A DNA stretch of 56,911 nucleotides from assembly GCA_032718475.1 (NCBI GenBank), contig JAUCBJ010002337.1:1-56911 (forward strand). Reading direction: 5' to 3'. The notes under the pieces were generated by a model, which searched no databases, was not told the origin of the DNA, and saw nothing but the letters and a program-made list of their open reading frames with translations. Shown here in pieces: positions 18,957 to 56,054 of the stretch; within the stretch, counting starts at the first letter, position 1, and every line of letters begins with the position of its first letter. Both the position numbers and the translations under genes were made by a program. This stretch comes from Nemertoderma westbladi. Its lineage: Eukaryota > Animalia > Xenacoelomorpha.

Positions 18957-19014
18957 GTCGGGTGCGGTAGTTAAATGGACGTCGGTGGGTCCGGATTATC
19001 CGCGTGTTCAGAAA

Positions 19015-25312: not shown

Positions 25313-25491
25313 AAGGAGCAGGTTGCAATGTCACGTTATTCTAACCAAAACAATAAACTAAAGTCAATATAAGAGGCTGCAGTTTTATTTTTAGGAGTAA
25401 TCAGCTGTTATTTGCCTGAATTTTCCCCTGGAGACTGGAGAGGGATGAATTTTGATTGGATCGAAAGCCCCCCCCCCCCCCCCCCCCCCCC
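25313..25491. repeat. Dispersed repeat, copy 2 (ends in poly-C)
   Basis: Homologous to 12099-12266, same orientation. Confidence 0.7.
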
Positions 25492-27514: not shown

Positions 27515-28073
27515 TTATTATCTTGTGGGGCGAGCCACGCAGTCAGGGCGAACCTTAGCGCACAATTATAATTAGTAAATAGGGCAAAATTTCATGGCCG
27601 TCTGTCTGTCTGTCCGTCTGTCTGTAATGAAAAATTCATTCGTAAATAACTTGTGAAGGTTTTAACCATTTTCAACCAAATTTATACTCTTACTCTTACT
27701 AGAGAAAAAGTTCCAATATTTTCGAAAGTTACGGGCAAATACCTCTCGAACTTTTGACTCCAGATCAAATCAAACTTGTTTCGAACTGGCTCAAGTTCGC
27801 GTGCTGCGCGACGCCCCACGAACGTGTAAACTTCAGTTGGTTGTATTATATTAAAAAGTAAACAGACTCCTCTATACATAATCATTATGTTTGTACATTA
27901 ACTATCTGTAGAACTTGTTGACCTTGAATGATTTGAGTACCAGTTGAATTACTGGGACTGTGGGAGTAAACCTTGGGTTAGGAGTAGCGTCCACCCTTGC
28001 CCTACCTTCAGGTAGCAGATAGGAGTAGCGCCCACCCCTACCTTCGGGTAGCAGATAGGAGTAGCGCCCACCC
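27515..28073. mobile_element. Possible Helentron/HINE-like non-autonomous element, left part (continues at 39954 to about 40535)
   Basis: (GTCY)n microsatellite CCGTCTGTCTGTCTGTCCGTCTGTCTGT at about 27598, followed by a core tandem repeat, the layout of DINE/HINE elements. A GC hairpin-like end GGCCTCGGCCGAGTGC lies at about 40511. Confidence 0.4.
27982..28073. repeat. 36-bp minisatellite, left part
   Basis: GGAGTAGCGCCCACCCCTACCTTC(A/G)GGTAGCAGATA, about 2.5 copies, interrupted by element A. Confidence 0.9.
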
Positions 28074-29315
28074 TGTAAAAGCTTTTGCGTAATTAGCCGG
28101 TTATTATCCCCGTAAAGTACTCTGTGGTTGGTTTACCAGGCATAAAAAGGCCGTGTCCTTGCTGTACTGGTGTTTTGGAGGACATAAAAGCCATTTCTTC
28201 TGTATTTGTACTTTAGAGGACATAATCTGTAATTTCGTGACGTAAAAGGCTCGATACTCTTGAAAACAGTGTCGCTACCATGACGACGGCTAACGGCTGA
28301 TATTGCCACGTTGCAACTTTCTGTATCTGCCAATAGAATTTGAGTTAGCTTTGATTTTGACCTATCACAGAGCTACTGAACTGAATTTTCCTATCTCACT
28401 GCTCTTTCTCTGTGTTGAACGGGAGCTTCGTGGAATAAGGGTAGCTGGTATTCTTATAGTTATTCTTATCAGTGTTGTTGGTGATTCTAAGCCAGGAAGA
28501 ACGGCTTTAGAGTATTTTGTGCTTTTATGCTTTAGCCTTACACTAGTAGGCTTAATTATAAGGACATATATCCGTTATCTGCATACTGCATACTGCAGTA
28601 CTGCATACACTGCATACTGTGTAACACTGTGCATACTTTTAGAATTGTTATACTGCTATTTACTGTCAGTTCTTCATAATATGGTTGATGAATTATTATA
28701 TTTGGAATAACGACAAATAACCCCGAAAACCCAATATTCTTGATATACCGAAGGTAAGAGAGAAAGGTTACAGATAAATGATTGCGACCTATGTTGAGTG
28801 GTTTGAAGTGAATCTAATGTTATTTGATAGACCCTACATGATTCGGTCCGTGTTCCTTTTATATGTGACTAAAATCAGTGAAGATCGGCAGATCAGTGTG
28901 CAGTATTGTGCAGCATTGTGTATGAGTGAGACTGATAACGAAGCATTTCCTAAAGAATGCGCCATATATGTGAATTGTAACTAAGCCATATCGTTGTGAG
29001 TAGTTTAAGTCATAACTCTGTTTATATAGATAGAGCGCCACGTCCTAAAGGAACTGTTAATATTCCCTGAAGGTGAATAATATTGTCAGAGATTATATAA
29101 TACTGTCAGTCGAATAATACATTAGGCTTACATAGCAATAAGATTAAGCTGTCGAAATCAATCTCCCGGGTATATCCAACGGGTGAATGATCGCGCACAG
29201 ATTGGTTTCAACTAGTGTAGTGAATCAAATACTTGTTAGAGGCTAAAGCGATTTATTATCTAGAAGACATCCTAATTTGGCGGGTTAAACTGCCAAAGGT
29301 CTGAAAGCGCGAACA
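28074..29315 (+). repeat. Element A 5' LTR
   Basis: Matches 38712-39953 at an offset of 10638. Confidence 0.95.
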
Positions 29316-29327
29316 ATAACGGATATA
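29316..29327 (+). promoter_or_regulatory. Non-tRNA primer-binding site ATAACGGATATA, complementary to LTR 28567-28578
   Basis: No TGG at the PBS position; perfect 12-bp complement to TATATCCGTTAT in the LTR; compensated in copy B. Confidence 0.75.
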
Positions 29328-31557
29328 GCTTCTTTATTGCAGTAAGCAATAAAGTTGAAAGTACCGGTCAACCGGTAAACCTGAACGGTCCATCTGTAGG
29401 TCAGTAGGCCCAACTGCCAGAACCGGTACTGCCGTAGGCCCGTAGGTCCAACTGCCAGAACCGGTACTTCAGTAGGTCGGTACGCCTAACTGTCCTAACC
29501 GGTACTTCCCGTATAAGTACAGCAGTATTATTCGATTTGATTATATATGCCGGTAGGTCTTAATAATTAATCGGGGACGCCTGGTTTTTATTGAGATTTT
29601 ACTTATTTCTGTCAAGTTTTATTTGTTTGTAGGCCAGTATTGAACAGAAGGCGTGTAAGCCTGATCAGATTGTACAGACAATTTGTAGGCTGAGCTGTTG
29701 TCTGATTGCTGTTAAGTCTGAACGGATTGCAGTGTGTGTAGATCACCTGTCCGATTAAGTACGGTTAGGAAGTAGGGGCAGCGAATGCTGTAAGGTAAAC
29801 CCCCAACTAAAGAATAAGTCGTACTACTGGGTTAGAACGCATACTCCCTAATCATTTCGGAGTCTGCATGTCCTGTAGTTTATTTAGGCTTGAGAGTAGT
29901 CTGCCATCGTTTAGTCTGTACTTTGTTTGTGTAAGTCTGTACGGGTAGCGTATAATTTTATTTAGATAATTTGTAGGCTGGATAGTTGTCTGGCTGTTAT
30001 TAGGCCTGAGCGGATTGCAGCGTGTGTAGATCACTTGTCCGATAAAGAACGGTTAGGAAGTAGGGGCAGCGAATGCTGTAAGGTAAACCCCCAATTAAAG
30101 AATAAGTCGTACTACTGGGTTAGAACGCATACTACCTAATTATTTCGGAGTCTGCATATACCGTAGTTTGTTTAGGCTTGATAGTAGTCTGTCAGTGTTC
30201 GGTCTGCATTTTGTTTGAGTAGTTTGTACGCGTAGCGTAATATTTATTATTCAGAGTTTATGCGATTATTCGCAACATTCATTCCCCAAGTTTGTTCCTA
30301 CAGTAATTGTGTTTGTTATACATACCGCTATAGTTAAATTAACCCCAGTACTACACGGGCTGCTTGGCATAGGTAAAGACTGGTGATTTTGTGCATCGGT
30401 CACTCCAGCAGATGCCGTGGTTCTTTTAGCTGTTCAAGTATATTTAACTACTGATTATCTGTTGTACAAGTACTCGTACCTAATTTAGGGTTTAGTGTAC
30501 AGTACTTTCCGAAGTAATTAGTGTAGACATTATATTTGTGTTGTAAAGTGGTTAATAGGCACGTTCGATTAGCTCTATTAACTTCTAGGTAGGAACACTC
30601 CGTGATACATAACGTAGAACCTATAGCGATACGGCTATAGGTCGTCAGGCGGTGGTATTTTTCTATCTGGACAACGCAGTGTATTTACTACTACTTATTA
30701 TTTCAAATACCGTAGTACCCTGTCCGTTGTAATAACCAGAATTCTAACCCTTTGTTAGGCTGGTTTGTAGACTTCTTGTAAAATTACCCTGAAATTCGTA
30801 TTTTGTGTTTTTGTAAATTTTTGTGTTTATTTAGAGATTGTAATCTCAACCCGAATTGTACGTAATTTGTAGTATTAAGTAACTTAGGTAAATTAGAATT
30901 ATTTGTTTTAGTGTCCTATAAGTAACACTTCACTGAAAGCGCACCGCTTTGTGTAGTGATTACTCCCCAGAAATAATAACATTTATTTCAAACATTGACT
31001 AAACCCATTAAAACGGGTATATATATATTATAAATCAAATCTAACGATTTATAAATAGTAGGCCTACCATATAACAATTAGGTCTCAATATCAGTTGGAC
31101 TACTGCTTAACTAACGGCAATAAAGTAAGTTAAAGTAACCAAGTAACCCTAAAATTCAGAAATTCAATTATTTAAAATAATTGATACACCGGTATTTACG
31201 ATAGGCCTATTATCTTATTTCTATAAATTTAGGCTGAAATTATACCGGTGCTTGTAATTAATTCTAGTCCAGAATTATATATACTACAAACTGTAAGCTG
31301 TATACCAGTATTCCCGATAGGCCTATTATATATTTATATATATTTGTGCTAAAATTATACCGGTATTCTGTGATAAACCTAGTCTGTAATAATAGTTATA
31401 TATACTATAAGCATACCGGTATTCTAATATATTATATATATCACGCTACACTGAGTAGCAGTACCGGTAATTAATTACTAGGCTAGCAGTTAATACTGAG
31501 TTACTAGACTTGCTCAGACTGTAATACAGCAGTAGATATTCAACTGTACACATAAGC

Positions 31558-34500
31558 ATGTCTGACGCAAAGCAGAACCTGTCAGACAGTCTACTAGATA
31601 CAACCGAGAGCGAAGTGACAGCAGAGAAACCGCATAAGAGGGATGCCATTGACATCTATCTGTCAGACTATCAACGTTTTTTAGGTAATGACGAGTTGAG
31701 GAGAAGGTTAGAGGGACTTAGCCCTAATAGTGAAGGAACCAAGCTTGTGTTGGATGCCATCGATGTGGAAATGAGGGCTGCGAATCAGGCTAAATTTGAT
31801 GAACAACTCCGCCTGACACGAGTCCAAGAAGAACAAGTAAAGAAAAAACGGATAGAAGATAGAAAGACAGCAGCAGCGGCAGTGGCAGCGGCAGAAGCGG
31901 ATAGAAAAGCGGCAGAGGCAGCGGCAGAGGCAAAAGCGGCAGCGGCAGAGGCAGCGGCAGAGGCAAAAGCGGCAGCGGCAGAGGCAAAAGCGGCAGCTGC
32001 GGCCGAAGCGGAAAGAAAAATAGCAGTAGCAGAAGCAGAACGGAGGGCGGCTGAAGAAACCATCCAATTAGAATTGGAAAACATTCAGGAGAATCAAGAC
32101 TGCATAAATAAACAGTTAACAGCTAGTAATATGCAGATGATGAATCGATCTACTCCCAAAAGACAGGGATATACATCATCTGAGGAAGGCGATACCACCG
32201 ATACTGAAGGCAAAGGAAATAGATCTCGTCTAAGCAGACGTAAAAGAACATTCCACCGTCAGAAATTGCCTGATTTGCCTCCAGCTGTTAGAAGGCAACT
32301 AAATAGCACCAACTTAGGCAGTACAGAACCCACAGACCAAATAATTAAAATAGAAAGACTCCCTACTATAGTAGATGAGCCTGAAATAATTAGGCCTGTT
32401 CTCGAAATCACCCCTTCGGTGATAGACACACCTGTGCTCCCTGAAGTTACCTCTAAATTCCCTCTGCATAGCACTAAGCTACCTGTGCCCCGTAGAACTG
32501 CCCCAGAGACAGTTCAAGTCCTGGATCCCGAGCGAAATATTCATAATTTGTCGCCCGTTGTCCCTCGTCCGCCCGCTACAATGTTGGCGACTCCCGCTTC
32601 GGCGGTCGAATGGGTGGACGAGAGACGGCGGGGGATGGATATCCTGCTCGGGCAGATGCAGGAGACTGTCCAGCAATTCAAGGGCACAGTAAGGGAAAGT
32701 AGGCTAGAGTTGCAAGAAGTGCAGCAAAGTATCGCGCTCGAACGCGATAAATTAGTAAATACCCAAAAGGGTATACCACCACCCTCTGTAACAATGTGTC
32801 AACCTGTTAGGTCTGAAGTATCGCATGCGCAAGGTGTGGAGCCTACACGCATATATACTGCTAGCGAAGTAGAAACTCCTATAGTGAACCCTATTAAGGG
32901 TAATTATAGACTTGTTGATAATGATATTCCACATAGAACTGATCATAATCCGAGAAATTTATATACCGATAACTTGATATTAAATAACACGATGGCCCAA
33001 GAAAGTTTTACGCGTCAAATGGCTAGAACCGAAGCCCGGCAAGCGGTAAAGGTGGGAGAGATCGTCAAGTTCAATGGAGATGAGATGAAATGGTTACCTT
33101 TTAATGAATATTACAAAGATAACATACAGAACTCTGTACTATCTAATGGAGAAAAACTTAGATACCTCATCGAGTGCTTGGAAGGATCTCCCAAGTTAAT
33201 GGCGTTAAGGTTTATTGGACATCCAGACGGATTAAGACAAGTTTGGGATACACTAAACATCAGGTATGGTAATAGGAATAACATAGCTGGGTATTTGTAT
33301 GCAAAGTTGGTAGCGCCCCGAAAGTTTATTAGCAGCGGGATTATAGAGTTTTCCGATGAAATTCAGGAGATCTGCAGACAATTAGATTGGCTAGGTAAGT
33401 CTCATGAGTATCAGAGTGCTATGGTTATTAGAGCAGTGGCTTCTACTTTACCGAAGGGTGGAGTAGGTACACGCTGGGATAAGAAAGTGTTATATATGAT
33501 GGAACAACAACGACGAGACCCTACCATGGCTGATCTCATGTCATTCTTAGATGGAGAAGTGAAATTACAGCTCCTAAGGCAGTCCAGAGAGAAGACATTG
33601 GAAAACAAGGTAAGTGAGAAACCCGTTTCTAGGAGAAGGGTAACACCAGTATGTTATACCGACGACGGTGAAAGCCAAACTTCTCAAGGAGAGGACAGCG
33701 GAAAAGACACTGACAGATCTTATTATGTCAATAAAATGCCTAAAGATCAGGTAAGTAAATCCGAGTCTCGACCCAATGACAGAAGGGAACCGGTACAAAA
33801 AACCCTTCCTACGTCTCCTAAAAGAATTCAGGTGAGAAAGCCCGAGGAAAGAACAAGTGTGCACCACATAGCACAGGTTAAAGTAAGTAACATCAAGCCG
33901 AAATGTGTGCTGTGCGACGGGCCCCACTGTTTAAATGCGTGTGATAAATTCCTGAGGAAATCACTAAAGGATAGACGTGAAGTCATGTGGGATAAGCGGT
34001 TGTGTTATAATTGCCTCAGACGAGGACACCAACGGCGAACCTGTTACTCCGACGCAAGGTGTGCAAAGTGCGGCGCAAAACATCATATCTTGTTGCACAC
34101 GGAATTCGAACGAAACAGCCCGAGTCAGGTAAGTGAGTCCGAACTACATGTCCAATTCAGTGATGTGAACGACACTGATCAATCTGAGATGGAAGGATTC
34201 TATACGGACGAGTTCTCCGACGAAAACGAATCCTGTTACTTAATAAACACCACCGCAGTGTATCGAGCACTCAAGTATGAGAAAGACACAGACAGTGACC
34301 TCACCCTAACTACTTCAGATCAACAACCATCTTGGAAAGCGCCAACTTCCAATGTAGGAATCCGAGAATTTCCTGTAGTCCAGTTACGGGTCCTCGGACC
34401 TCAGAAGAGCTATATAGTGAACGCCCTCCTGGACTCCGGCAGCACGGGAACATTCATCGATAGGGAACTAGCCGAGGACATCTTTGCTGGACAACCCAAG

Positions 34501-35643
34501 TTCCGAACCAAGCTAAACATGTCAGGGATCATGCAGGTTTGGAAATCTGCTGTGGCTGCCGACTATTATATAGGTGAGTTGTCCACTCCACAGGATAAAC
34601 TAGGAGAACACAGTATAAGGTCAGTCAAAATGGTGGCAATAAAGAACTTCGCTACTACTCAAGCAGACCTTTATAATTGGGACGAGGATGAGAGCATCCA
34701 ACATCTTAAGATACCTCGATTCCAGACTGATTATCCGGGAGTGCAAATACTCATCGGCCAAAATGCGCATGAGGCGCTGGAGACATTAGAGAAACGACCT
34801 ACTCAACCGCAATCACTTCAGACATATGCGGTAAGAACTAGAGTAGGTTGGTACCTTACTGGACCTTCCCGTAGAACGCTCAGGGAAAGACTGCTTCAAG
34901 ATCACGTCTGCCAGGTGAGTGAATGGGAAGACGATACTAGTGAGGGAGACGACCCAACTGAGGGAACACCACACTCCTCAGATAATGACAATCTTAACTC
35001 CAATGTAGATCAATGGAGATATTGCCCCAAGACGATGAATACAACTGACATCGCTTCCAGAGGAGCAACTCCTCAAGAACTGACAGATACTACAGACCGG
35101 TTAGGTGAACCCGACTTCCTGAGTAAGGAGGATGAATTGCCTCCCCATCTTACTCCGACTGAGATTAGACCAGCCAAGGGAGCGGAGAAAGTTAAACCTA
35201 AAACCCGGACGGGTGGAGCGGAGTTATTTGAACCCGGGATAGATCTGTCGGTATTACATATTGCCAGGGACGACGCCCTGGATCTGGACCTCCCCACCGC
35301 GAGTGGATCCTTCATGAAGATCAGAAAGAGCGATTGGAGCTCTGGAACATCAGACGTCTCGCAGGGACTCTCACCTCTCCTGCAGAGAGCGACGGACCAC
35401 TATAGCTCCTGGAATCGGCTTTGTGACGCCGTCATATACTTTGAGCGATGTTTCTATCGTCACTATTCCAGGACGAAGAGGAAACCTGGAATTGTATTCA
35501 GGATGCAGCGACTCAATCACCCAGTCGGTCGTTTGTGTTTACCGGAAGGGAATGGAGGACTCTCCGGAAACTGTGGAAGGCAAGATTCTCATCCCACGAC
35601 CACCTCCCTAATCCTTCAAACATCTAGGGACTCCATAACGTAA
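31558..35643 (+). CDS. Bel/Pao Gag-protease polyprotein fused in frame to the RNase H C-terminal stub; no RT or integrase
   Basis: DUF1759-like Gag (KFNGDEMKW..F, EKLRYL, L..RYGN). Triple knuckle CVLCDGPH..C / CYNCLRRGH..C / CAKCGAKHH..LH. Protease ALLDSGS, ILIG, GWYLTGP. Then directly QWRY..N..DIASRG, PDFL and YSSWNRL. Confidence 0.9.
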   Translation: MSDAKQNLSDSLLDTTESEVTAEKPHKRDAIDIYLSDYQRFLGNDELRRRLEGLSPNSEGTKLVLDAIDVEMRAANQAKFDEQLRLTRVQEEQVKKKRIEDRKTAAAAVAAAEADRKAAEAAAEAKAAAAEAAAEAKAAAAEAKAAAAAEAERKIAVAEAERRAAEETIQLELENIQENQDCINKQLTASNMQMMNRSTPKRQGYTSSEEGDTTDTEGKGNRSRLSRRKRTFHRQKLPDLPPAVRRQLNSTNLGSTEPTDQIIKIERLPTIVDEPEIIRPVLEITPSVIDTPVLPEVTSKFPLHSTKLPVPRRTAPETVQVLDPERNIHNLSPVVPRPPATMLATPASAVEWVDERRRGMDILLGQMQETVQQFKGTVRESRLELQEVQQSIALERDKLVNTQKGIPPPSVTMCQPVRSEVSHAQGVEPTRIYTASEVETPIVNPIKGNYRLVDNDIPHRTDHNPRNLYTDNLILNNTMAQESFTRQMARTEARQAVKVGEIVKFNGDEMKWLPFNEYYKDNIQNSVLSNGEKLRYLIECLEGSPKLMALRFIGHPDGLRQVWDTLNIRYGNRNNIAGYLYAKLVAPRKFISSGIIEFSDEIQEICRQLDWLGKSHEYQSAMVIRAVASTLPKGGVGTRWDKKVLYMMEQQRRDPTMADLMSFLDGEVKLQLLRQSREKTLENKVSEKPVSRRRVTPVCYTDDGESQTSQGEDSGKDTDRSYYVNKMPKDQVSKSESRPNDRREPVQKTLPTSPKRIQVRKPEERTSVHHIAQVKVSNIKPKCVLCDGPHCLNACDKFLRKSLKDRREVMWDKRLCYNCLRRGHQRRTCYSDARCAKCGAKHHILLHTEFERNSPSQVSESELHVQFSDVNDTDQSEMEGFYTDEFSDENESCYLINTTAVYRALKYEKDTDSDLTLTTSDQQPSWKAPTSNVGIREFPVVQLRVLGPQKSYIVNALLDSGSTGTFIDRELAEDIFAGQPKFRTKLNMSGIMQVWKSAVAADYYIGELSTPQDKLGEHSIRSVKMVAIKNFATTQADLYNWDEDESIQHLKIPRFQTDYPGVQILIGQNAHEALETLEKRPTQPQSLQTYAVRTRVGWYLTGPSRRTLRERLLQDHVCQVSEWEDDTSEGDDPTEGTPHSSDNDNLNSNVDQWRYCPKTMNTTDIASRGATPQELTDTTDRLGEPDFLSKEDELPPHLTPTEIRPAKGAEKVKPKTRTGGAELFEPGIDLSVLHIARDDALDLDLPTASGSFMKIRKSDWSSGTSDVSQGLSPLLQRATDHYSSWNRLCDAVIYFERCFYRHYSRTKRKPGIVFRMQRLNHPVGRLCLPEGNGGLSGNCGRQDSHPTTTSLILQTSRDSIT

Positions 35644-37301
35644 CAACATATGGAGTGGGCGTGTGACTCTATTATTTTATATTATTTTATTGTTTTTATA
35701 TTTACGTATGTATTACTATGTAATTTTATTATAATCGTTTTATTTAATTTTATTTACTAGAATATTATTTAGCGATTATTTAGTAGAATAGTGCAATATA
35801 TTCGTGTTTATTGCGTACGTAATTACTTATAATATATATTTAGTGCGACGGCAAGAAATAATTCTTTTCCTTCTTCCTTACTGTCCGTATTACATTACAA
35901 ATACGTAACTACAGTAAGATGAAATGTCCGTACTTATTAAAGTACAATAAAGCCACTACTATATTTAAGTATTATTGGTAGGCAGAGTATTAGGAATGCA
36001 AAGTTCAGATCCTCGTGTCTCGGCTAAACCAAGCTCTGGGTAGACCTTGGAAACGACTTGCCTCTTCACACTGACATTGCTTCGTGCGATATTGCTCTCA
36101 TACCGTATATTAAATAATACATATAGTAGCGTGATGTCCCTTTAACAGTAGCGTTTAATGCAAAATAAATCTGTTAAACCCTTTGACCATCTGTAATTCT
36201 AGTCGATTAAGATATCGCGGCACCCACCGATATACTTGAAAGACAAATTCTAGAATCAGTGGTTAACGTCCCCAGACAAGTTCTGGAATAAATCGGTGCC
36301 CATCTCAAATATTAATTATTTAATATTTGCAAATCTAATAAATCAAAATCTGTAAAATTCAGATCCTTCAACAATTCTAGTCAATTAAGATATCGTAGCA
36401 TTTACCGATATTCTTAAAAAAGACAATTGTCATAGAATTAAGGATCTTGTGTCCCTAGACATGTTCTAGAATCAAAATATGTCCATTTAATTATCAAATA
36501 ATAAAATTTCAGGGAATAAATTTAAATTCATGCCTTTTAATGAATTTAATAAATTGCCATTTTTACGCAATTTATAACATTCCCAAAATTCCATTAATTA
36601 ATAGATCAAGGGAGCGGAGATTTATCTTATTATGCATATGAGTGTGCGAAAGTCTCCCAAACATAGTCAATAGCCGATAAAATTCATAGAGTCATGTATA
36701 AAACAGAACATTGACTATTAAAGAATACTATTAAATAACATCCCAGATCTGTATGTATTGGAATTACCCTAATTCTACCGCTAGCTTTGCATAATGTCAC
36801 CATAGCAACAACCACGCTAGAATTAGAATTGAGTTAAAAGAACAATAGAAAGCTTGTCCCATTGAATAGCATAGGGAATAAATAGCGCACTACTAGTATC
36901 CAAGGATACATAATAATACAGTGACATTCTGGAAGGCATTGACTAACGGACAAATGGCCCGAATGTGTAATTTGTGACAAGTTGTGTGTGTGGTATTTGT
37001 GAGTTTATAGGCGAATGTTACTACTAAGGTGTGTTTACAGTAGCGAGTCGCAATTGTGAAAGTAACCCTAACTCTCCAGTAAGAACCTGAGGTGTATCTA
37101 AGCCTTTGGGACGGACAGTCGAATGACTTGTGCCGGTTGTCGTTGTCGTTGTGCGGCTACGTCGTTGGCGAAAGTACAGCGGCGACGACACATCGGCGCT
37201 GAGGATCTCGTACTGTCCGGGGGTTGATTGGGGTAGGCAGCGACGCCCGCTCGCCTAAATGTGGACTCATTATAATATGGATAAACTCATATATAGCAGA
37301 T

Positions 37302-38608
37302 ATGACGGAGTTGATAGAAGATGGTCTTGGTATCGGGGAGCGATATACTCTACTTTTACAAGCGTTTGTTGATAGCTTAATACGCGGCGACGTTAGTCCA
37401 ACTGCTGCGGAGGACGATGGTCGTTATATCGAACCGCCAATGTCCCAAGAGCAGCTCACGCGTGAGTTGGACTATAGAAAATTCGCTGCTCGATATACGC
37501 AGCGTAATGGTACGTATATGGTCTTCTTAACTACTGGTCCTCCTATCGATTTACATAATACGGACTATGTCGACTATATATCCTGCCCAGCGGAGTCGGA
37601 ACCATAAACTGAAATTCGAATGCGAAAATTCTATTCGAAATCGACTCGAAAGAAAAGACACTAAAGAAACAAATAAACGCGGTAACTCCAACGTATATTT
37701 GGAATTCTTGATAGAAGCATTGTAACAACAAATAAATATCACCCGCGTTTCCCCTACCAGACGTGCGTCTTTGGTATTATTACGATAAATGCCCTAGACC
37801 CAACTAATAAACGGAAAGACATAAACATCCACGGAAACGTTGTGTTAAACACAGTTGTGCTCGTTATATTTACTGGAGTTTCGAGCGAAACTTGTTTGAC
37901 GTATCACATATGCTCACTCGGCTCGAACGATCCTGGAGTAAACCTACGATCAGAGTCCCGGAATACTCGGTCAAACCTCCTCATTCCTTAGTTGGACCTC
38001 AGACCTGCGATCCTGGTGGTGTCGCGGATCCTCGCGGACTGTATTCACTGTTCAAAGATCTAGTGCTACCCTAACAATTAATCGGTAACACTCCGACAGT
38101 GATTTCTAGCTAGCCGCCCATCTTACCTAGCTGGATTGTGACGCGGACACCTAATATCACTATCCAACCGTATGGTCGTTCCCGTTTAACGCGATACAAC
38201 CCTTCATCAAGGTGAAGGAGAGCGTTGTACGAAACGAGTTAAACGCTATTCTATAAAGATCAAAAAGGAAACCTGCGTTTGTTCAGATAAACGTAAGTTA
38301 TAACAGTAAGTCCAATCGATAAACGAATTGGCCTTATCTCAGTTCGATTTGGAAATCTCGAATCTCTAAGAAGAAATCAAGCTTAGAAAACCCTATTCTC
38401 GGCGAGAGTTTTGGATGAACGTATCCAGCTACGAGCGGAGGAAAATCAGCTCGAGGAGAAGCATATCGAAACGGCGGATACCCCGACCATAATCCTACAC
38501 CTTCTGATGCAATCATATTGCACCCTTCACCCAGGATTTATAGCCCTCCTAGTAAAGTGGCTCGCCCCAAAGAGAAAAGGACTCTTGCTAGCCTCAAAAA
38601 CTGCGTAA
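37302..38608 (+). pseudogene. Decayed second ORF of element A, at the env/accessory position; unidentified
   Basis: Protein-like frames (MTELIEDG..., RFPYQTCVFGII.., SFERNLFDV.., DERIQLRAEE..) are colinear with element B and broken by stops and frameshifts. Confidence 0.55.
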
Positions 38609-38711
38609 ACGCCGTCTGCGTAAGAAAGACTAACTGTTTAGAGTATCTTTATATTTTAGAAACTGTGATTTGTTATATTTTATAGACTTAAATCCCATTT
38701 TCTGGGAGTGG

Positions 38712-39953
38712 TGTAAAAGCTTTTGCGTAATTAGCCGGTTATTATCCCCGTAAAGTACTCTGTGGTTGGTTTACCAGGCATAAAAAGGCCGTGTCCTTGC
38801 TGTACTGGTGTTTTGGAGGACATAAAAGCCATTTCTTCTGTATTTGTACTTTAGAGGACATAATCTGTAATTTCGTGACGTAAAAGGCTCGATACTCTTG
38901 AAAACAGTGTCGCTACCATGACGACGGCTAACGGCTGATATTGCCACGTTGCAACTTTCTGTATCTGCCAATAGAATTTGAGTTAGCTTTGATTTTGACC
39001 TATCACAGAGCTACTGAACTGAATTTTCCTATCTCACTGCTCTTTCTCTGTGTTGAACGGGAGCTTCGTGGAATAAGGGTAGCTGGTATTCTTATAGTTA
39101 TTCTTATCAGTGTTGTTGGTGATTCTAAGCCAGGAAGAACGGCTTTAGAGTATTTTGTGCTTTTATGCTTTAGCCTTACACTAGTAGGCTTAATTATAAG
39201 GACATATATCCGTTATCTGCATACTGCATACTGCAGTACTGCATACACTGCATACTGTGTAACACTGTGCATACTTTTAGAATTGTTATACTGCTATTTA
39301 CTGTCAGTTCTTCATAATATGGTTGATGAATTATTATATTTGGAATAACGACAAATAACCCCGAAAACCCAATATTCTTGATATACCGAAGGTAAGAGAG
39401 AAAGGTTACAGATAAATGATTGCGACCTATGTTGAGTGGTTTGAAGTGAATCTAATGTTATTTGATAGACCCTACATGATTCGGTCCGTGTTCCTTTTAT
39501 ATGTGACTAAAATCAGTGAAGATCGGCAGATCAGTGTGCAGTATTGTGCAGCATTGTGTATGAGTGAGACTGATAACGAAGCATTTCCTAAAGAATGCGC
39601 CATATATGTGAATTGTAACTAAGCCATATCGTTGTGAGTAGTTTAAGTCATAACTCTGTTTATATAGATAGAGCGCCACGTCCTAAAGGAACTGTTAATA
39701 TTCCCTGAAGGTGAATAATATTGTCAGAGATTATATAATACTGTCAGTCGAATAATACATTAGGCTTACATAGCAATAAGATTAAGCTGTCGAAATCAAT
39801 CTCCCGGGTATATCCAACGGGTGAATGATCGCGCACAGATTGGTTTCAACTAGTGTAGTGAATCAAATACTTGTTAGAGGCTAAAGCGATTTATTATCTA
39901 GAAGACATCCTAATTTGGCGGGTTAAACTGCCAAAGGTCTGAAAGCGCGAACA
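38712..39953 (+). repeat. Element A 3' LTR
   Basis: Matches 28074-29315. Confidence 0.95.
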
Positions 39954-43056: not shown

Positions 43057-44222
43057 TGTTCGCGCTTTTAAGACCCTTGACAGTTTAACCTGCCAAATTA
43101 GGATGTCTTTTGGATGATATATATTCTTTAGCTTATGACGAGTATTTGATACACTACATTAGCCGAAGCCAGCCTATGCGCAATCATTCACCCGTTGGAT
43201 ATACCCGGGAGACTGAGTTCGGAGCTTAATGATTGATGGTGTAAGCCTACCGTATTATTCGACTGATCGTAATATATAATCTCTGACAAATATTATTCAC
43301 TTTCGGTAAATATTAACAGTTCCTTTAGGACGTGGCGCTCTAAATATGTAAACAGAGTTATGACTTAAACTAGACACAACGAAAAGGCTATAGATTAACG
43401 TATATGGCGCATTCTTTAGGAGATGCTTTGTTATCAGTTACAATCATACACAATACTGCACAATACTGCACACTAATCTGCCTACCTTCACTAAATTTGG
43501 TCACGTATAAAGAGAGCAACAGACAATTTATGTTGGGCATATGAAATAGCATTAGATTCACTTCAAACCACTCAACATAGGTCGCAATCGTTTATCTGTA
43601 ACTGGTCTCTCTAACCTTTAGTATATCAAGAAGGTGGGGTGTCTGACTATTGATCAGTATTCCGATATAATAATTCATCAACAAATATCACGAATAACCA
43701 ACAGCAAAAGCAGTAATGTAAGATATGAATTGCATAGATATGTATGATAAGATTGTAATTAACTCGATAACAGATATACGTTCTATAATTAAGCCTACTA
43801 ATGTAAAGCTAAAGAACGCTGATATACGGAGGTGCTAAAAGCCAATGTTCTTAGGCTCTGAGCAAAAACATAACACTGAACTACTGAGTTCTGTACACAC
43901 CTCCAACACAGAGACAAAAAACGCTCTGATTGGTCAACCGAACAACGAGAGAACAAAGAAACAAAGAAACGTCGACGTGGCAATATCAGCTGTTAGCCGT
44001 CGTCATGGTAGCGACACTGTTTTCAAGAGTATCCAGCTTATCGCGTCACGAGATTGCGGATTATGTCCTCTAAAGTACAAATACAGTACAAATACAGAAG
44101 AAATGACTTTTATGTCCTCTAAAACACCAGTACAGCAAGGACACGGCCTTTTTATGCCTGGCAAACCAACTACAGAGTACTTTAAGGGAAAATAACCGGT
44201 TAATGACGCAAAAGCTTTTACA
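43057..44222 (-). repeat. Element B 3' LTR
   Basis: Matches 54889-56054 at an offset of 11832; preceded on the minus strand by TGGGAGCGG. Confidence 0.95.
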
Positions 44223-44329: not shown

Positions 44330-47300
44330 GCAGTTTTTTTTTGAGGCTAGTAAGAGTCCTTTTCTCTTTGGGGCGAGCCACTTTACTAGGAGGGCTATAA
44401 ATCCTGGGTGAAGGGTGCAATATGATTGCATCAGAAGGTGTAGGATTATGGTCGGGGTATCCGCCGTTTCGATATGCTTCTCCTCGAGCTGATTTTCCTC
44501 CGCTCGTAGCTGGATACGTTCATCCAAAAACTCTCGCAGAGAATGGGGTTGTCTAAGTTCGATATCTTCTTAGAGATTCTGGATTTCACAATCGAACTGA
44601 GATAAAGACAATTCGTTTATCGCTTGGACTTGCTGTTACAACTTACGTTTATCTGAACAAACGCAGGTTTCCTTTCTGATCTTTGTGAATAGCGTTTAAC
44701 TCGTTTGGTACAACGTTCTCCGCCACTTTGGTGACAGGTTATATCGTGTTAAGCCGGGACGGGACGATGGTAAGGGTTAAACGGCGATATTAAATGTCCG
44801 CGTCCCAATCCGGCTAGGTAGAATGGGCAAGTATCTAGGAAGCCCACAACTGGGGTGCCACCGACTAATTGTTCAGGTAACACTAGATCTTTGAGCAGTG
44901 AGTACAGCTCGGGAGGATCCGTCATACTAATAGGATCAAGAGTCTGAAGTCTCACTAGGGAATGAGGAGTTCTGATCGAGTATTCCGAAACTCTGATCAT
45001 TGGTTTATTTAAGGATCGTCTGAGTCGAATGAGCGTAGGTGATACATCGAACAAGTTTCGCTCGAAACTCCCGTAAGTATAGCGAGTAAAACCGTGTTTA
45101 AAGCAACGTCTCCGCGGATGTTTATGTCTTTCTTTATGTTTAGTGTTTAAAGCTCATCTATCCCATCATAGTAGACATGTACCGAACAACAAGAGTCCCA
45201 CAAGAAATGAAAACAAATAAGTTGGTGCCAGTTCCCAAGAAGGGCAACCTAACACTCTATGGTTCTTTTCGGGGAATCTCATTGATCTCGATTGCTGCAA
45301 AGCTATACAATAGGATTCTATTAAATCGCATCAGGGATCCCATTGAGAGACTGCTCCGTGGAAATCAGAATGGGTTCCGTAAAGGTCGTGGGACCATGGA
45401 GCCCATTTTGGCACTTAGAAGGATAATTGAAGAATTATCAAAAAAGAAAGACAGGCATCTGGCTGTTATCTTTGTTGACTTCTTCAAGGCCTTTGATTCA
45501 GTCTCTCGTTCACGTATGTTCAGCATACTTTCATTATATGGGATTCCTGATGAAATTATTGCAGCAATCAGATCAGTATACGATGGTTCGACAACATTTG
45601 TGTCTACTGTTGACGGTGACACAGAACCATTTGAAGTGTTATGGGGCGTCCTCTAAGGAGACACACTTGCACCATTCTTGTTCATTATTGTGGTTGACTA
45701 TGTTCTACGCATGTCCTTAGATCATCATAATGATGATGGGGTGATGATAACTCCACCTACTGGCTCCAGAAGTCGAGGAAATCCTGCCAAGTACCTAACT
45801 GATCTAGACTTTGCTGATGACTTAGGAGTACTCTCAGAATCATTAGAGGGAGCCCAACGGCTCTTCAGCTCATTAGAACATGCTGCTTCTAGTGTTGGTC
45901 TTTTTATTAACTCCAGAAAGACCAAAATTCTGACCGTTAACTTTGAAAGTCCTCAGCAAGTCTCTGATCGGATGAGCATAAGCTCAAAGGATGGTATGCT
46001 TGAGCATGTGGACGACTTCTGTTACCTGGGATCATGGATCCGGAAGTCAGGTGAGGACCTTCGAATACGTAAGGGAAAGGCATGGGCAGCCTTGAATAGG
46101 CTTTCCAGGATTTGGAAGTCACCGAGAATTAATCGGAAACTTAAGGTCCGATTATTTAGAGCAGCAGTAGTTCCAGTACTCCTCTATGGGAGTCCATGCT
46201 GGGCTCTAACTGCTGAGGACACCAAATCTCTGGATGGCACATTCACAAGAATGCTACGCCGGGTTCATTGTGTCAAGTACAATGCACACATCTCCAACCA
46301 GACACTATATAACATTGGAGGTGTCTCATTGGTTCCCCCAAGCTTGACACTAGAACAAAACCGCCTCCGCTTTGCAGGACATTGCTTTCGCCGTGAGGAC
46401 CAGCCAGTGCATAATCTTGTACTTTGGCAGCCTCATGGAGTGAAAAAGCATGGTGGACAGCCCATGACTTTCTTGAGACGCATCTTAAAGGACACTGGCC
46501 TTAAAGATGCGGATGATCTAGCAAATGTCATGGGTGATAGGGAGTTGTGGCAGTGCAATTTTGTTGACAAGCCGGCACAGCATTCTTAAAAATGCAGCTG
46601 CAATGCAGCATGCCGATCCTAGTAGTAGTAGTAGTTATGTCTTTCCGTTTGTTGGTTGGGTCTTGGGCATTCATCGCAATAATACCAAAAACGCACGTCT
46701 TGTAGGGGAAACGCGAGTGATCTTCCTCCAGCTTACAATATTCTTCCATCCGTTCGAAGCTATCCGGTACAACAGGTAGCGATCGATCGGTGGTAAGATA
46801 CATCATAGTGGAATAGAGCCGTTTGAGTTCTACCATGCGGTCATGATGTATACCTTGAGGATATCGAGTTTCTAGATTCTGTTGACTGGTAATATCTAAT
46901 AGGTTTCTCTCAAGAATTCCAGGTATTTGGTGGAGTCGCTGCATTTATCCGGCTCTTCGACATCTGCACTTTCGAGTCGGTTTCGAATAGAATTTTCGTG
47001 TTTGAGTCTCAGTTTATCGTTCCGCTTCCGCTGGGTATGATATTTAAATAAACCATTTCCCTTTGGTGTCTATATCGTTCGTATCGTGTAGGTCGATAGG
47101 ATGACCAGTAGTCAAGAAGTCCATATACGTACCATTACGATGCGTATAGCGAGCGGTGAATTTTCTACAGTCTAACCCACGCGCAAGTTGCTCCCGGGAC
47201 ATTGGCAGTTAGATATAACGACCATCGACCTCCGTAGTAGTTGGACCAGCGTCGCCGCGTATCAAGCTATCAACAAATGCTTGTAAAGGTAGAGTATATC

Positions 47301-48988: not shown

Positions 48989-51900
48989 TTACGTTATGGA
49001 GTCCCTAGATGTTTGAAGGATTAGGGAGGTGGTCGTGGGAAGAGAATCTTGCCTTCCACAGTTTCCGGAGAGTCCTCCATTCCCTTCTGGTAAACACAAA
49101 CGACCGACTGGGTGATTGAGTCGCTGCATCCCGAATACAATTCCAAGTTTCCTCTTCGTCCTGGAATAGTGACGATAGAAACATCGCTCTAGGTACACGA
49201 CGGCCTTACAAAGCCGATTCCAGGAGCTATAGTGGTCCGTCGCTCCCTGCAGGAGAGGTGAGAGTCCCTGCGAGACGTCTGATGTTCCAGAGCTCCAATC
49301 GCTCTCTCTGATCTTCATGAAGGATCCACTCGCGGTGGGGAGGTCCAGATCCACGGCGTCGTCCCTGGCAATATGTAATACCGACAGATCTATCCCGGGT
49401 TCAAATAACTCCGATCCACCCGTCCGGGTTTTAGGTTTGACTTTCTCCGCTCCCTTGGCTGGTCTAATCTCAGTCGGAGTAAGATGGGGAGGCCATTCAT
49501 CCTCCTTACTCAGGAAGTCGGGTTTACCTAACCGTTCTGTAGTATCTGTCAGTTCTTGAGGAGTTGCTCCTCTGGAAGCGATGTCAGTTGGATTAAACTT
49601 CTTGGGGCAATATCTCCATTGATCTACATTGGAGCTAATATCGTCATTATCTGAGGAGTATGGTGTTCCCTCAGTTGGGTCGTCTCCCTCACTAGTATCA
49701 TCTTCCCATTCACTCACCTGGCAGACGCGATCTTGAAGCAGTCTTTCTCTGAGCGTTCTTCGGGAAGGTCCAGTAAGGTACCAACCTACTCTAGTTCTTA
49801 CCGCATAGGTCTGAAGTGGTTGCGGTTGAGCAGGTCGTTTCTCCAATGTCTCCAGCGCCTCATGCGCGTTTTGACCGATTAATATTTGTACTCCAGGATA
49901 ATCGGTGTCGAATCTAGGAATGTTAAGTTGTTGGGCATGATCATCTTCGTCCCAATTATAAGGTTCCACTTGGGTGGTAGCGAAGTTCTTTATTGCCACC
50001 ATTTTGACTGACCTTATACTGTGTTCTCCTAGTTTATCCTGTGGAGTGGACAACTCACCTATATAATAGTCGGCAGCTACAGTAGAATTCCAAACCTGCA
50101 TGATCCCTGACATGTTTAGCTTGGTTCGGAACTTGGGTTGTCCAGCAAAGATGACTTCGGCTAGTTCTTTATCGATGAATGTTCCTGTGCTACCGGAGTC
50201 CAGGAGGGCGTTCACTATATAGCTCTTCTGAGGTCCGTGGACCCGTAACTGGACTACAGGAAATTCTCGGATTCCTATATTGGAAGTTGGCGCTTTCCAA
50301 GATGGTTGTTGATCAGAAGTAGTTAAGGTAAGGTCGCTGTCTGTGCCTTTCTCATGCATGAGTGCTCGATACACTGCGGTGGTGTTTATTAAGTAACAGG
50401 ATTCGTTTTGGTCGGAGAATTCGTCCGTATAGAATCCTTCCATCTCAGAACTTTGGTCAGTGTCGTTCACATCACTGAATTGGACATGTAGTTGTTCGGA
50501 CTCACTTACCTGACTCGGGCTGCTTCGTTCGAATTCAGTGTGCAACAAGATGATGTTTTGCACCGCACTTTGCACACCTTGCGTCGGAGTAACAGGTTCG
50601 CCGTTGGTGTCCTCGTCTGAGGCAATTATAACACAACCGCTTATCCCACATGACTTCCCGTCTCTCTTTTAATGATTTCTTTAAGAATTCATCGCACATA
50701 TTCAAGCGGTGGGGCCCATCGCACAGCACACATTTGGGTTTGATGTTACTTACTTTAACCTGTGCTGTGTGGTGCACACTTGTTCTCTCCTCGGGCCCTC
50801 TCACCTGAACTCTCTTGGGAGACGTAGGAGGAGTTTTTCTTACCTGTTCTCTCCTGTCATTGGTTCGAGACTTGAATTTACTTACCTGATCTTTAGGCAT
50901 TTTATTTACGTAATAAGATCTGTCAGTGTCTTTCCCGCTATCTTCTCCTTGAGAAGTCTGGCTTTCGCCATCATCTGTATAACACACTGGTGTTACCCTT
51001 CTCCTAGAAACGGGTTTCTCACTTACCTTGTTTTCCAGTGTCTTCTCTCTGGACTGCCTTAGGAGCTGTAATTTCACTTCTTCATCTAGGAATGACATGA
51101 GATCAGCCATGGTAGGGTCTCGTCGTTGTTGTTCCATCATATATAACACTTTCTTATCCCAGCGTGTGCCTACTCCACCTTTCGGTAAAGTAGAAGCCAC
51201 TGCTCTAATAACCATAGCACTCTGATACTCATGAGACTTACCTAGCCAATCTAATTGTCTACAGATCTCCTGAATCTCATCGGAAAACTCTATAATCCCG
51301 CTGCTAATAAACTTTCGGGGCGCTACCAACTTTGCATACAAATACCCAGCTATGTTATTCCTATTACCATACCTGATGTTTAGTGTATCCCAAACTTGTC
51401 TTAATCCGTCTGGATGTCCAATAAACTTTAACGCCATTAACTTGGGAGATCCTTCCAAGCACTCGATGAGGAATCTAAGTTTCTCTCCATTAGATAGTAC
51501 AGAGTTCTGTATGTTATCTTTGTAATATTCATTAAAAGGTAACCATTTCATCTCATCTCCATTGAACTTGACGATCTCTCCCACCTTTACCGCTTGCCGG
51601 GCTTCGGTTCTAGCCATTTGACGCGTAAAACTTTCTTGGGCCATCGTGTTATTTAATATCGAGTTATCGGTATATAAATTTCTCGGATTATGATCCGGTC
51701 TATAGGGAATATCATTATCAACAGGTCTATAATTACCCTTAATAGGGTTTACTATAGGGGTTTCCACTTCACTAGCAGTATAGATGCGTGTAGGCTCCAC
51801 ACCTTGCGCATGAAATACTTCAGACCTAACAGGTTGACACATTGTTACAGGGGGTGGTGGTATACCCTTTTGTAAATTGACTAATTTATCGCGTTCTAAC

Positions 51901-52684
51901 GCGATACTTTGCTGCACCTTTTGCAACTCTAACCTACCTTCCCTGACTGTTCCCTTGAGCTGCTGAACAGTCTCTTCCATTTCCCGGACCTGCTGGGAGG
52001 AACATTTACAATGTTCCCTCAGCTGCCCGAGCAGGAGACCCATCTCCCGTCGTCCCTCAGCTACCCACTCGACCGCCGAAGCGGGAGTCGCCAACGTAGT
52101 AGCGGGCAAGCGAGAGACGACGGGCGATAAATTCTGGATATCTCGCTCGGCGTCCAGGATGGGTTCGGACTCGGGAACAGTCCTACTGGGCACAGGTAGT
52201 TTCGTGCTGTGTAAAGGGAATTTAGAGGTAGGTTCTGGGAGTACAGGTGTCTCTATCACCGCAGGGGTGGCTTTGAGAACAGGCCTAATTATTTCAGGCT
52301 CATCTACTATAGTAGGGAGTCTTTCTACTGTAATAATTTGGTCTGTGGGTTCTGTACTACCTAAGTCTGTGCTAGCTAGTCTCACCACAGGAGGCAAATT
52401 AGGTAACTTCGGACAGTGTGGCATTCTTCTACGCCTGCTTGAACGAGATTTATTACCTCTACTTTCGGGATCTCTTATATCACCTTCATCGGATAACTGT
52501 CTTAATAACTGTCTTCCGATTTGTCTCCTCAAGTCTGCTTCTGCCACTGCCTCTGCCGCTTTTCTTTCCGCTTCTGCCGCTGCTACTTTTCTTTCTTCTA
52601 TCCTTTCAAGACACTGTCCAAGTCGAAGACTCATTCTAACACTTTTCAAAAGACTATCTGACAGTGCCCGTTTTGTGTCAGATA
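48989..52684 (-). pseudogene. Element B Gag-protease ORF; start codon ATA and a 2-nt frameshift at about 50548
   Basis: ORFs 50535-52649 (Gag) and 48989-50575 (PR + RNase H stub) align to A's 1361-aa protein. CATCATATCTTG in A is CATCATCTTG in B, and the position of A's ATG reads ATA (52682-52684). Confidence 0.85.
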
Positions 52685-54888: not shown

Positions 54889-56054
54889 TGTTCGCGCTTT
54901 TAAGACCCTTGACAGTTTAACCTGCCAAATTAGGATGTCTTTTGGATGATATATATTCTTTAGCTTATGACGAGTATTTGATACACTACATTAGCCGAAG
55001 CCAGCCTATGCGCAATCATTCACCCGTTGGATATACCCGGGAGACTGAGTTCGGAGCTTAATGATTGATGGTGTAAGCCTACCGTATTATTCGACTGATC
55101 GTAATATATAATCTCTGACAAATATTATTCACTTTCGGGAAATATTAACAGTTCCTTTAGGACGTGGCGCTCTAAATATGTAAACAGAGTTATGACTTAA
55201 ACTAGACACAACGAAAAGGCTATAGATTAACGTATATGGCGCATTCTTTAGGAGATGCTTTGTTATCAGTTACAATCATACACAATGCTGCACAATACTG
55301 CACACTAATCTGCCGACCTTCACTAAATTTAGTCACGTATAAAGAGAGCAACAGACAATTTATGTTGGGCATATGAAATAGCATTAGATTCACTTCAAAC
55401 CACTCAACATAGGTCGCAATCGTTTATCTGTAACCGGTCTCTCTAACCTTTAGTATATCAAGAAGGTGGGGTGTCTGACTATTGATCAGTATTCCGATAT
55501 AATAATTCATCAACAAATATCACGAATAACCAACAGCAAAAGCAGTAATGTAAGATATGAATTGCATAGATATGTATGATAAGATTGTAATTAACTCGAT
55601 AACAGATATACGTTCTATAATTAAGCCTACTAATGTAAAGCTAAAGAACGCTGATATACGGAGGTGCTAAAAGCCGATGTTCTTAGGCTCTGAGCAAAAA
55701 CATAACACTGAACTACTGAGTTCTGTACACACCTCCAACACAGAGACAAAAAACGCTCTGATTGGTCAACCGAACAACGAGAGAACAAAGAAACAAAGAA
55801 ACGTCGACGTGGCAATATCAGCTGTTAGCCGTCGTCATGGTAGCGACACTGTTTTCAAGAGTATCCAGCTTATCGCGTCACGAGATTGCGGATTATGTCC
55901 TCTAAAGTACAAATACAGTACAAATACAGAAGAAATGACTTTTATGTCCTCTAAAACACCAGTACAGCAAGGACACGGCCTTTTTATGCCTGGCAAACCA
56001 ACTACAGAGTACTTTAAGGGAAAATAACCGGTTAATGATGCAAAAGCTTTTACA
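54889..56054 (-). repeat. Element B 5' LTR
   Basis: Matches 43057-44222. Confidence 0.95.

What the first reader, a model, noticed from the sequence alone, without database searches (positions are those of the whole stretch)
34860..35643. Stable RT-less, integrase-less Bel/Pao family that keeps Gag-protease in frame
Seen: after the protease (GWYLTGP) both A and B jump in frame, near 34995 in A, to the RNase H tail (QWRY..NPTDIASRG in B). Both stop before integrase. The same junction occurs in two clearly diverged subfamilies, each with matched LTRs and a TSD, so the deleted form has kept transposing. Inference: a semi-autonomous parasite that supplies capsid and protease and borrows RT, RNase H and IN in trans. 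This is like plant TR-GAG/BARE-2-type elements but in Bel/Pao. If self-priming holds, the helper's RNase H must also cut the primer in trans.
Basis: partly seen in the sequence, partly recalled or inferred. Interest (0 to 1): 0.7.

Follow-up and report, generated by a model that had tools for sequence, protein, structure and literature searches.

The report
Freeloading retrotransposon keeps capsid and protease
Two separately inserted copies of an animal Bel/Pao retrotransposon lack the genes for copying and integrating themselves but keep capsid and protease genes conserved by selection, so the family likely spreads by borrowing enzymes from a rarer full-length partner, a lifestyle well known from plants.

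Summary
Confirmed. Copies A (28074-39953, +) and B (56054-43057, -) are complete LTR elements, each with its own 5-bp TSD. In both, the frame runs from the protease end to the RNase H tail in about 56 residues, against a median of 566 in 81 database relatives. No Bel/Pao RT, RNase H core or integrase was found in any frame. Gag-protease is under purifying selection between A and B (dN/dS 0.19-0.26). The stub after the junction shows no such constraint on its residues. Public contigs show the same join in a third subfamily about 82% like A, and rarer contigs leave the stretch at the join, as a full-length partner would. Corrections: B's Gag-protease frame is broken; BARE-2 is the mirror image (it lacks Gag); A's private changes look neutral. 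Best reading: a non-autonomous family that supplies capsid and protease and likely borrows RT, RNase H and integrase in trans, like wheat RLG_Quinta or TR-GAG elements. A 12/11-bp LTR-PBS complement with compensatory changes hints at Tf1-like self-priming. The partner itself was not seen. New variant of a known kind.

The parts
28069..28073 (+). Left TSD of copy A (CACCC), inside a 36-bp minisatellite; right TSD at 39954-39958
28074..29315 (+). 5' LTR of A (TGT...ACA, 1242 bp)
   Evidence: 100% identical to 38712-39953
28567..28578 (+). LTR segment complementary to the first 12 nt after the LTR; candidate self-primer
   Evidence: 4 of 5000 shuffles reach 12 nt; pairing probability 0.86-1.0 in a fold started at this site; ends a block 81% conserved A/B against 54% on each side
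29316..29327 (+). Candidate PBS (ATAACGGATATA); no TGG tRNA-type site in A
   Evidence: one G-C to A-T compensatory change in B
29332..29354 (+). 9-bp hairpin just after the PBS
   Evidence: two compensatory pair changes between A and B (sequences)
29316..31557 (+). 2.2-kb non-coding leader with a 288-bp tandem duplication (29676-30255), also present in B
31558..35643 (+). Single ORF of A, 1361 aa: coiled-coil N-terminus, Gag, triple zinc knuckle, protease, acidic linker, RNase H tail, short connection remnant, stop
33070..33453 (+). Bel/Pao Gag capsid core (DUF1759)
   Evidence: Pfam E 2e-11; best PDB fold hits are PNMA2 capsids, weak, E 0.0045
33904..34098 (+). Triple Cys-His box CX2CX3HX4C, CX2CX4HX4C, CX2CX3HX4H
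   Evidence: translation; pattern from PMC554778
34369..34866 (+). Aspartic protease, LLDSG at 34426-34440 and LIG motif intact in A and B
   Evidence: dN/dS 0.29-0.37; weak retropepsin fold hits
34867..35007 (+). Acidic linker holding the in-frame deletion join (about 34990-35007)
   Evidence: profile jump 623 to 1158; contigs leave the stretch at 34989
35008..35145 (+). RNase H tail stub (QWRY..N(P/T)TDIASRG)
   Evidence: mostly non-synonymous variation
35146..35643 (+). C-terminal remainder with a weak match to the connection motif (SSWNRL, 35401-35460), then stop before integrase
   Evidence: connection sub-profile i-E 0.27 in A, 0.006 in B
35644..38703 (+). 3-kb non-coding 3' region of unknown origin
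   Evidence: no Pfam hit, no codon periodicity, frequent frameshifting indels A/B
38704..38711 (+). Short purine-rich tract before the 3' LTR (candidate PPT)
38712..39953 (+). 3' LTR of A
54889..56054 (-). 5' LTR of copy B (TSD TGCTG at 56055-56059 and 43052-43056); candidate self-primer 55599-55609, PBS 54878-54888
50535..52718 (-). B Gag frame, 727 aa stop to stop, ends after a frameshift near 50552
48989..50668 (-). B protease-linker-stub frame; same join as A near 49625-49642
45134..46646 (+). Nested LINE fragment in B (RT domain with a stop, 11-bp TSD); not part of the family
43057..44222 (-). 3' LTR of B

Best explanation
This is a multi-copy Bel/Pao LTR retrotransposon family that has lost RT, the RNase H core and integrase, keeps Gag and protease under purifying selection, and likely moves by co-packaging its RNA with enzymes made by a rarer full-length relative. 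Shown: the anatomy, the two insertions with TSDs, the in-frame join, selection on Gag-protease, and the join in a third subfamily. Inferred: (1) an in-frame deletion in a single-ORF ancestor fused the post-protease linker to the RNase H tail, and integrase was lost too; (2) the copies make Gag-protease that co-assembles with the partner's Gag-Pol, giving the surplus of capsid and protease that a single-ORF element needs; (3) the partner's RT and RNase H copy the RNA and its integrase inserts it, using the kept LTR ends, PBS and PPT; (4) Gag also works between copies, so a copy that has drifted can still be carried along; (5) priming probably uses the element's own 5' end, as in Tf1, which would need the partner's RT/RNase H to cut it. 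The stub is likely a scar rather than a working domain.
For: Own TSDs and matched LTRs for A and B, with LTRs 15% apart between copies and 0-0.6% within. No RT, RNase H core or integrase in any frame, with positive controls. dN/dS Gag core to protease 0.19 (p 6e-17), or 0.26 with a transition weight of 4 (p 1e-11); substitutions by codon position 24/21/64. One net frameshift in 32200-34866 against about 27 expected at the non-coding indel rate. Family contigs: 55,384 laid in X1 and 13,193 in X3. X5 record 30 bridges the join with about 70 nt on each side at 82% identity, depth 1085; X4 record 19 bridges it too. X5 record 29 (383 nt, depth 30) matches 34840-34989 and then runs on 233 nt unlike the stretch, and 9 contigs in X1 have loose ends at 34989. 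No indel reached 20% in 34700-35260. In-frame RT-less Bel/Pao ORFs recur in other hosts beside full-length relatives: P0002 against P0220 (97% identical, 403 aa missing), and P0066/P0192/P0196/P0231/P0234, which share one join on 5 contigs. Precedent in wheat RLG_Quinta/RLG_Cereba (PMC11302176).
Against: No full-length partner was retrieved: no genome is held, the best protein relatives are 20-45% identical in patches, and the run-on contigs could be truncated or interrupted copies. Contig depth is not copy number, and single-copy depth was not measured. B is broken between Gag and protease. At 17 listed sites where at least 90% of family depth differs from A, and B sides with the family, A's changes are 14 non-synonymous to 3 synonymous, as neutral drift predicts (p 0.78). 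So selection acted on older branches, and A's own protein may no longer matter. A's identical LTRs sit oddly with that drift (about 15 mismatches expected if it came after insertion). This fits re-mobilisation of a drifted parent, but also gene conversion or an assembly that homogenised the LTRs. Part of the A/B purifying signal could predate the deletion if Gag segments were recombined in from autonomous copies; divergence is mosaic.
Confidence: 0.72

Rival explanations
1. Pure cis parasite (LARD-like). The deleted RNA is carried by the partner and its Gag-protease no longer contributes. The low dN/dS is inherited from autonomous ancestors through recombination or divergence before the deletion.
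For: Mosaic A/B divergence, 1-3% in the Gag core and 13-20% elsewhere. A's private changes are neutral, 14 non-synonymous to 3 synonymous. B is frameshifted.
Against: Selection is seen in five separate segments from the N-terminus to the protease. Frameshifts are nearly absent from the ORF but common in the flanks. Among the 12 indels listed family-wide, the only one in the ORF is 3 nt (117 more not shown). Deleted forms appear to far outnumber run-on forms (36:1 for X5 records 30 and 29), so autonomous donors look rare. Shared variants at the protease end are 7 synonymous to 1 non-synonymous.
Confidence: 0.17
2. The family began as a reverse-transcribed spliced Gag-protease mRNA of an autonomous element (a copia-like subgenomic RNA, recalled) rather than as a DNA deletion. 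It would work as in the best explanation but have a different origin.
For: The join is in frame. In P0002 and P0064 the 3' breakpoint lands on the same RNase H-tail motif.
Against: 5' breakpoints differ between cases (profile about 620, 640, 745, 760) and 3' ones fall at about 1150-1230. My queries included the stub, which biases the landing site. Integrase is also gone, which one splice would not explain.
Confidence: 0.06
3. Host-domesticated or restriction-type Gag-protease, kept by host selection, with the copies spread by segmental duplication.
For: Purifying selection on Gag-protease; the capsid core resembles the domesticated PNMA2 capsid, weakly.
Against: Different TSDs and flanks, LTR pairs matched within each copy, and tens of thousands of variant contigs fit transposition rather than a single-locus host gene.
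Confidence: 0.04

Closest known systems
Wheat RLG_Quinta with its partner RLG_Cereba (Ty3/gypsy); PMC11302176, abstract and section 5 read
   Same: Multi-copy LTR element with an intact Gag ORF and no RT or integrase; proposed to supply Gag while the partner supplies the enzymes.
   Different: Here the superfamily is Bel/Pao, in what is most likely an animal (Bel/Pao is metazoan-only per PMC3601003); the protease is kept; the PBS is not tRNA-type; the partner is not yet identified.
TR-GAG and GAG/PROT-only 'semi-autonomous' plant elements; PMC13570524, passages
   Same: Keep Gag, or Gag and protease (28 of 115 sugar beet families), and lack RT, RNase H and integrase.
   Different: Plant copia/gypsy. 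This element is 11.9 kb with 1.2-kb LTRs and keeps an in-frame RNase H tail.
Mouse IAP I-delta-1 subtype; PMC6466679, passage
   Same: In-frame internal deletion gives a fused ORF; non-autonomous yet more active than full-length copies.
   Different: I-delta-1 loses part of gag and pol and needs both in trans. Here Gag and protease are whole and under selection.
BARE-2 of barley (title seen in the reference list of PMC13570524)
   Same: Non-autonomous partner of a full-length element.
   Different: Mirror image: BARE-2 lacks Gag.
Defective Bel/Pao copies with LTRs in mosquitoes (Anakin study); PMC7642597, passages
   Same: Bel/Pao copies missing domains, some with both LTRs, one figure panel labelled non-autonomous.
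   Different: The passages seen treat them as defective copies tied to chuvirus glycoprotein, with no shared join and no selection test. No glycoprotein was found here.
Tf1/sushi self-priming elements; PMC4600332, PMC6317226, PMC5341516, bioRxiv 10.1101/2022.12.06.519325, passages
   Same: The sequence directly after the 5' LTR is complementary to 11-12 nt inside the LTR; no tRNA-type PBS.
   Different: Reported for gypsy (Tf1/sushi, Tcn1) and copia (TAR) lineages in the passages seen. The two flanking 'pretzel' duplexes were not found here, and the transcription start is unknown.

Membership tests
Bel/Pao (Belpaoviridae) LTR retrotransposons | Triple Cys-His box CX2CX3-4HX4C, CX2CX2-4HX4-5C, CX2-4CX3HX4H | tested here: met
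   All three present in A, with the HH doublet; definition in PMC554778
Bel/Pao (Belpaoviridae) LTR retrotransposons | Protease with LLDXG and LIG motifs | tested here: met
   LLDSG and LIG in A and B; Pfam Asp_protease_2 weak, E 0.0013
Bel/Pao (Belpaoviridae) LTR retrotransposons | Bel/Pao-type Gag (DUF1759) and Bel/Pao proteins as best relatives | tested here: met
   Pfam E 2e-11; most of the 42 hits carry PF05380 and PF03564
Bel/Pao (Belpaoviridae) LTR retrotransposons | TG...CA LTRs with TSD | tested here: met
   TGT...ACA and 5-bp TSDs in both copies
Autonomous Bel/Pao element | RT (YVDD), RNase H (DAS) and integrase after the protease | tested here: not met
   Absent in all frames; it is a Bel/Pao derivative, not an autonomous member
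Bel/Pao subclade (BEL, Pao, Sinbad, Suzu, Tas and others) | Placement on an RT tree | not testable with these tools
   No RT in the element and no labelled reference set
Gag-keeping non-autonomous LTR elements (TR-GAG / Quinta type) | Gag ORF kept, enzymes lost | tested here: met
Gag-keeping non-autonomous LTR elements (TR-GAG / Quinta type) | Amplified after the loss (several insertions share the deleted structure) | tested here: met
   Two TSD-bounded copies; third subfamily bridging the join
Gag-keeping non-autonomous LTR elements (TR-GAG / Quinta type) | Autonomous partner sharing LTR ends, PBS and PPT | tested here: inconclusive
   Only run-on contigs at 34989; no genome held; nothing in metagenome or viral contigs
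Gag-keeping non-autonomous LTR elements (TR-GAG / Quinta type) | Gag is expressed and used in particles | not testable with these tools
   No RNA holder on record; selection is indirect evidence only
Tf1-like self-priming elements | PBS complementary to a segment of the LTR | tested here: met
   12 nt in A (4 of 5000 shuffles), 11 nt in B (23 of 5000 reach 11 or more), with a compensatory change
Tf1-like self-priming elements | That segment is the 5' end of the transcript | not testable with these tools
   No raw RNA reads; no TATA[AT]A box 25-30 nt upstream; a TTATAA lies about 10 nt upstream in A
Tf1-like self-priming elements | Three-duplex 'pretzel' structure | tested here: inconclusive
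   No further complement over 8 nt between PBS-flanking sequence and the LTR downstream of the primer; a local hairpin follows the PBS instead

The most novel reading that the evidence does not exclude
An abundant Bel/Pao family has split the retrotransposon life cycle in two: many RT-less copies supply capsid and protease, a rare partner supplies the enzymes, and both prime reverse transcription from their own RNA as Tf1 does. This would be a first for Bel/Pao and would make the partner cut the primer in trans. In-frame RT-less derivatives in other animals suggest the split recurs across the superfamily.
Probability: 0.3. Interest if true: 0.72.

Novelty: new variant of a known kind. Interest (0 to 1): 0.5.

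Why it matters
Gag-keeping non-autonomous LTR elements are documented mainly in plants and among vertebrate ERVs. Ten literature searches showed no described Bel/Pao family of this kind and no self-priming Bel/Pao element; Repbase, Dfam and most subscription papers were not searched. RT-based annotation misses such families even when they are abundant. A family with selection on capsid and protease but not on the enzyme scar lets one test why Gag is worth keeping (mutualism or cis advantage). If self-priming holds, it extends tRNA-free priming to a third LTR superfamily.

Tried and rejected
No genome is held, so the tBLASTn census for a helper could not be run. Metagenome and viral contig scans found no relative. 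No RNA holder listed; X4 is RNA by guess only and was not used for expression. Host taxon not obtained (searches gave no name; one search used too strict a threshold). Hidden integrase, env or second ORF in the leader or 3' region: rejected. The RT inside B as the family's own RT: rejected, it is a nested LINE. A and B as one segmental duplication: rejected by different TSDs and flanks. Function for the RNase H stub at protein level: not supported. A/B gives 0 synonymous and 7 non-synonymous changes but has little power (dS about 0.03); shared family variants are 1 synonymous to 7 non-synonymous against 7 to 1 at the protease end, p 0.01. Keeping the frame open after the protease is only marginal (0 indels against 2.6-3.7 expected, P 0.02-0.07). 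Rfam and ARAGORN found nothing credible. X3 records 14 and 15 and X5 records 27 and 28 touch the join but have under 31 nt on one side, so they were not counted as bridging. Six low-share linker rows of the 55 variant rows were left out. The fold search gave no match at E 0.001 or better. That Tf1's PBS also starts ATAAC is recalled and was not confirmed. No earlier scan findings.

Full report
Anatomy. Self-comparison of the window shows two inverted copies of one element. Copy A spans 28074-39953 with identical 1242-bp LTRs and TSD CACCC, inside a 36-bp minisatellite. Copy B spans 56054-43057 with 1166-bp LTRs (7 mismatches) and TSD TGCTG. The LTRs of A and B differ by 15%, so these are two insertions and not a duplication. 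A has one ORF of 1361 aa: DUF1759 Gag (E 2e-11), a triple Cys-His box and an LLDSG/LIG protease, the Bel/Pao hallmarks given in PMC554778 (passages). A predicted model (mean pLDDT 73) has PNMA2 capsid and retroviral proteases as its top PDB hits, all weak (E 0.0045-0.02).

The observation. A profile from 38 of the 42 hits (those of 1450 aa or more) matches A up to position 623 and resumes at 1158 after 26 codons in the same frame; B behaves alike. The distance from the protease end to the RNase H-tail motif is 56 residues in A against a median of 566 in the 81 database proteins that had both motifs. RT/RNase H and integrase sub-profiles found nothing in 24 frames outside Gag-protease, while a full-length control scored 478 and 164 bits. 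Pfam found nothing in A's leader or 3' region. The RT domain inside B is a nested LINE fragment with its own TSD. B's frame is broken near 50552, so only A is intact.

Selection. Between A and B, dN/dS is 0.19 (CI 0.12-0.28) over 602 codons from the Gag core to the protease, or 0.26 with transition weighting; the N-terminus gives 0.35-0.47. After the protease it is 1.16-1.50 on 258 codons, with low dS and wide intervals. Non-coding flanks hold 63 frameshifting indels for 505 substitutions; 32200-35643 of the ORF holds one net frameshift for 246. Against a simple story: divergence is mosaic, and A's own branch looks neutral. At 17 of 49 listed ORF sites, at least 90% of family depth in two runs differs from A and B sides with the family; 14 of these are non-synonymous and 3 synonymous. 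About 15 LTR mismatches would be expected if that drift came after insertion, yet there are none. This suggests that a drifted parent was re-copied with proteins from elsewhere, or that the LTRs were homogenised.

The family outside the window. Seven runs from four studies hold the stretch or a part of it. On 32900-38711, 55,384 contigs were laid in X1 and 13,193 in X3; single contigs reach depth 4400-7900 in X3, where a lone 1613-nt contig has 25. Depth is not copy number, but this points to many copies in several subfamilies. X5 record 30 bridges the join at 82% identity (depth 1085), and X4 record 19 bridges it at 96%. X5 record 29 (depth 30) follows A to 34989 and then runs on 233 nt unlike it, and 9 X1 contigs have loose ends at the same place. 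That is where a full-length copy would continue towards RT, but I did not establish what the run-on codes for, so the helper is a lead only.

Recurrence. Of 191 proteins had Gag with downstream pol parts but no RT. P0002 and P0218 (JGI) are 96-97% identical to full-length P0220 and lack 403 residues, landing on the same RNase H-tail motif. P0064 (Amphibalanus amphitrite, a gene model, so possibly a prediction artefact) lands there too. P0066, P0192, P0196, P0231 and P0234 (ENA) share another join on five contigs, and P0192 keeps its whole integrase. Their DNA context was not seen, so their mobility is unknown.

Priming. No TGG-type PBS follows A's LTR. The first 12 nt (A) or 11 nt (B) are complementary to an LTR segment; 4 and 23 of 5000 shuffles do as well, and one pair changes on both sides between A and B. 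The segment ends a conserved block in the most diverged part of the LTR, and a 9-bp hairpin after the PBS has two compensatory changes. This is the Tf1 arrangement described in PMC4600332 and bioRxiv 10.1101/2022.12.06.519325 (passages). The flanking 'pretzel' duplexes were not found and the start site is unknown. An internal tRNA fragment or an RNA cyclisation role is not excluded. I put self-priming at about even odds.

Mechanism. The copies most likely make Gag-protease that co-assembles with a partner's Gag-Pol; the partner's RT, RNase H and integrase finish the cycle. Loss of the enzymes, repeated insertion and selection on Gag-protease are shown. Expression, co-packaging and the partner are inferred.

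Comparison and novelty. It works like wheat RLG_Quinta (PMC11302176, abstract and section 5) and the GAG/PROT-only plant families (PMC13570524, passages), and resembles IAP I-delta-1 in its in-frame fusion (PMC6466679, passage). BARE-2 is the reverse case. It is a Bel/Pao derivative, not an autonomous member. Ten searches and term look-ups in PMC3118150, PMC7642597, PMC3286476 and PMC3601003 (passages) showed defective Bel/Pao copies but no selected Gag-protease-only family and no self-priming Bel/Pao. No supplements were read, and repeat libraries such as Repbase may already list such elements. Verdict: real, a new variant of a known kind; interest 0.5, higher if the partner and self-priming are confirmed.

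Noticed in passing
window 14052-19192 (-): Apparently intact Ty3/gypsy element: 1496-aa frame with RT, RNase H and integrase, 169-bp LTRs 99% identical.
   Followed up: no
window 1421-2908 (-): 495-aa frame with DUF3504 and a tyrosine-recombinase domain, Crypton-like (label recalled).
   Followed up: no
window 4227-5063 and 5080-5943 (-): Two closely packed, apparently intron-poor host genes; the first is a NUDIX hydrolase.
   Followed up: partly
window 38332-38711: Contig depth in run X5 rises from about 4,000 to 18,000-31,000 just before the 3' LTR, hinting at other, shorter derivatives that share the 3' end.
   Followed up: no
window 36950-38650: GC-richer part of the 3' region with broken frames of 88-134 aa; no Pfam or Atlas hit and no codon periodicity; origin unexplained.
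   Followed up: partly
window 50535-50560 (-): B's frameshift happens to end Gag right after the third knuckle with His spacing kept (HHLVAH), giving a Gag-only product; not among the 12 family indels listed, so probably private to B.
   Followed up: partly
window 31870-32050: Alanine-rich (AAAEAK) repeat in A's N-terminus, largely absent from B.
   Followed up: no
P0192 and relatives (ENA proteins): Barnacle-like Bel/Pao ORF with Gag, protease and whole integrase but no RT or RNase H, a different semi-autonomous layout.
   Followed up: partly
window 19204-19620, 21024-21680, 27964-28073 and 39954-40490: Tandem arrays with units of 4-8, 63 and 36 bp; the 36-bp array is split by copy A.
   Followed up: no
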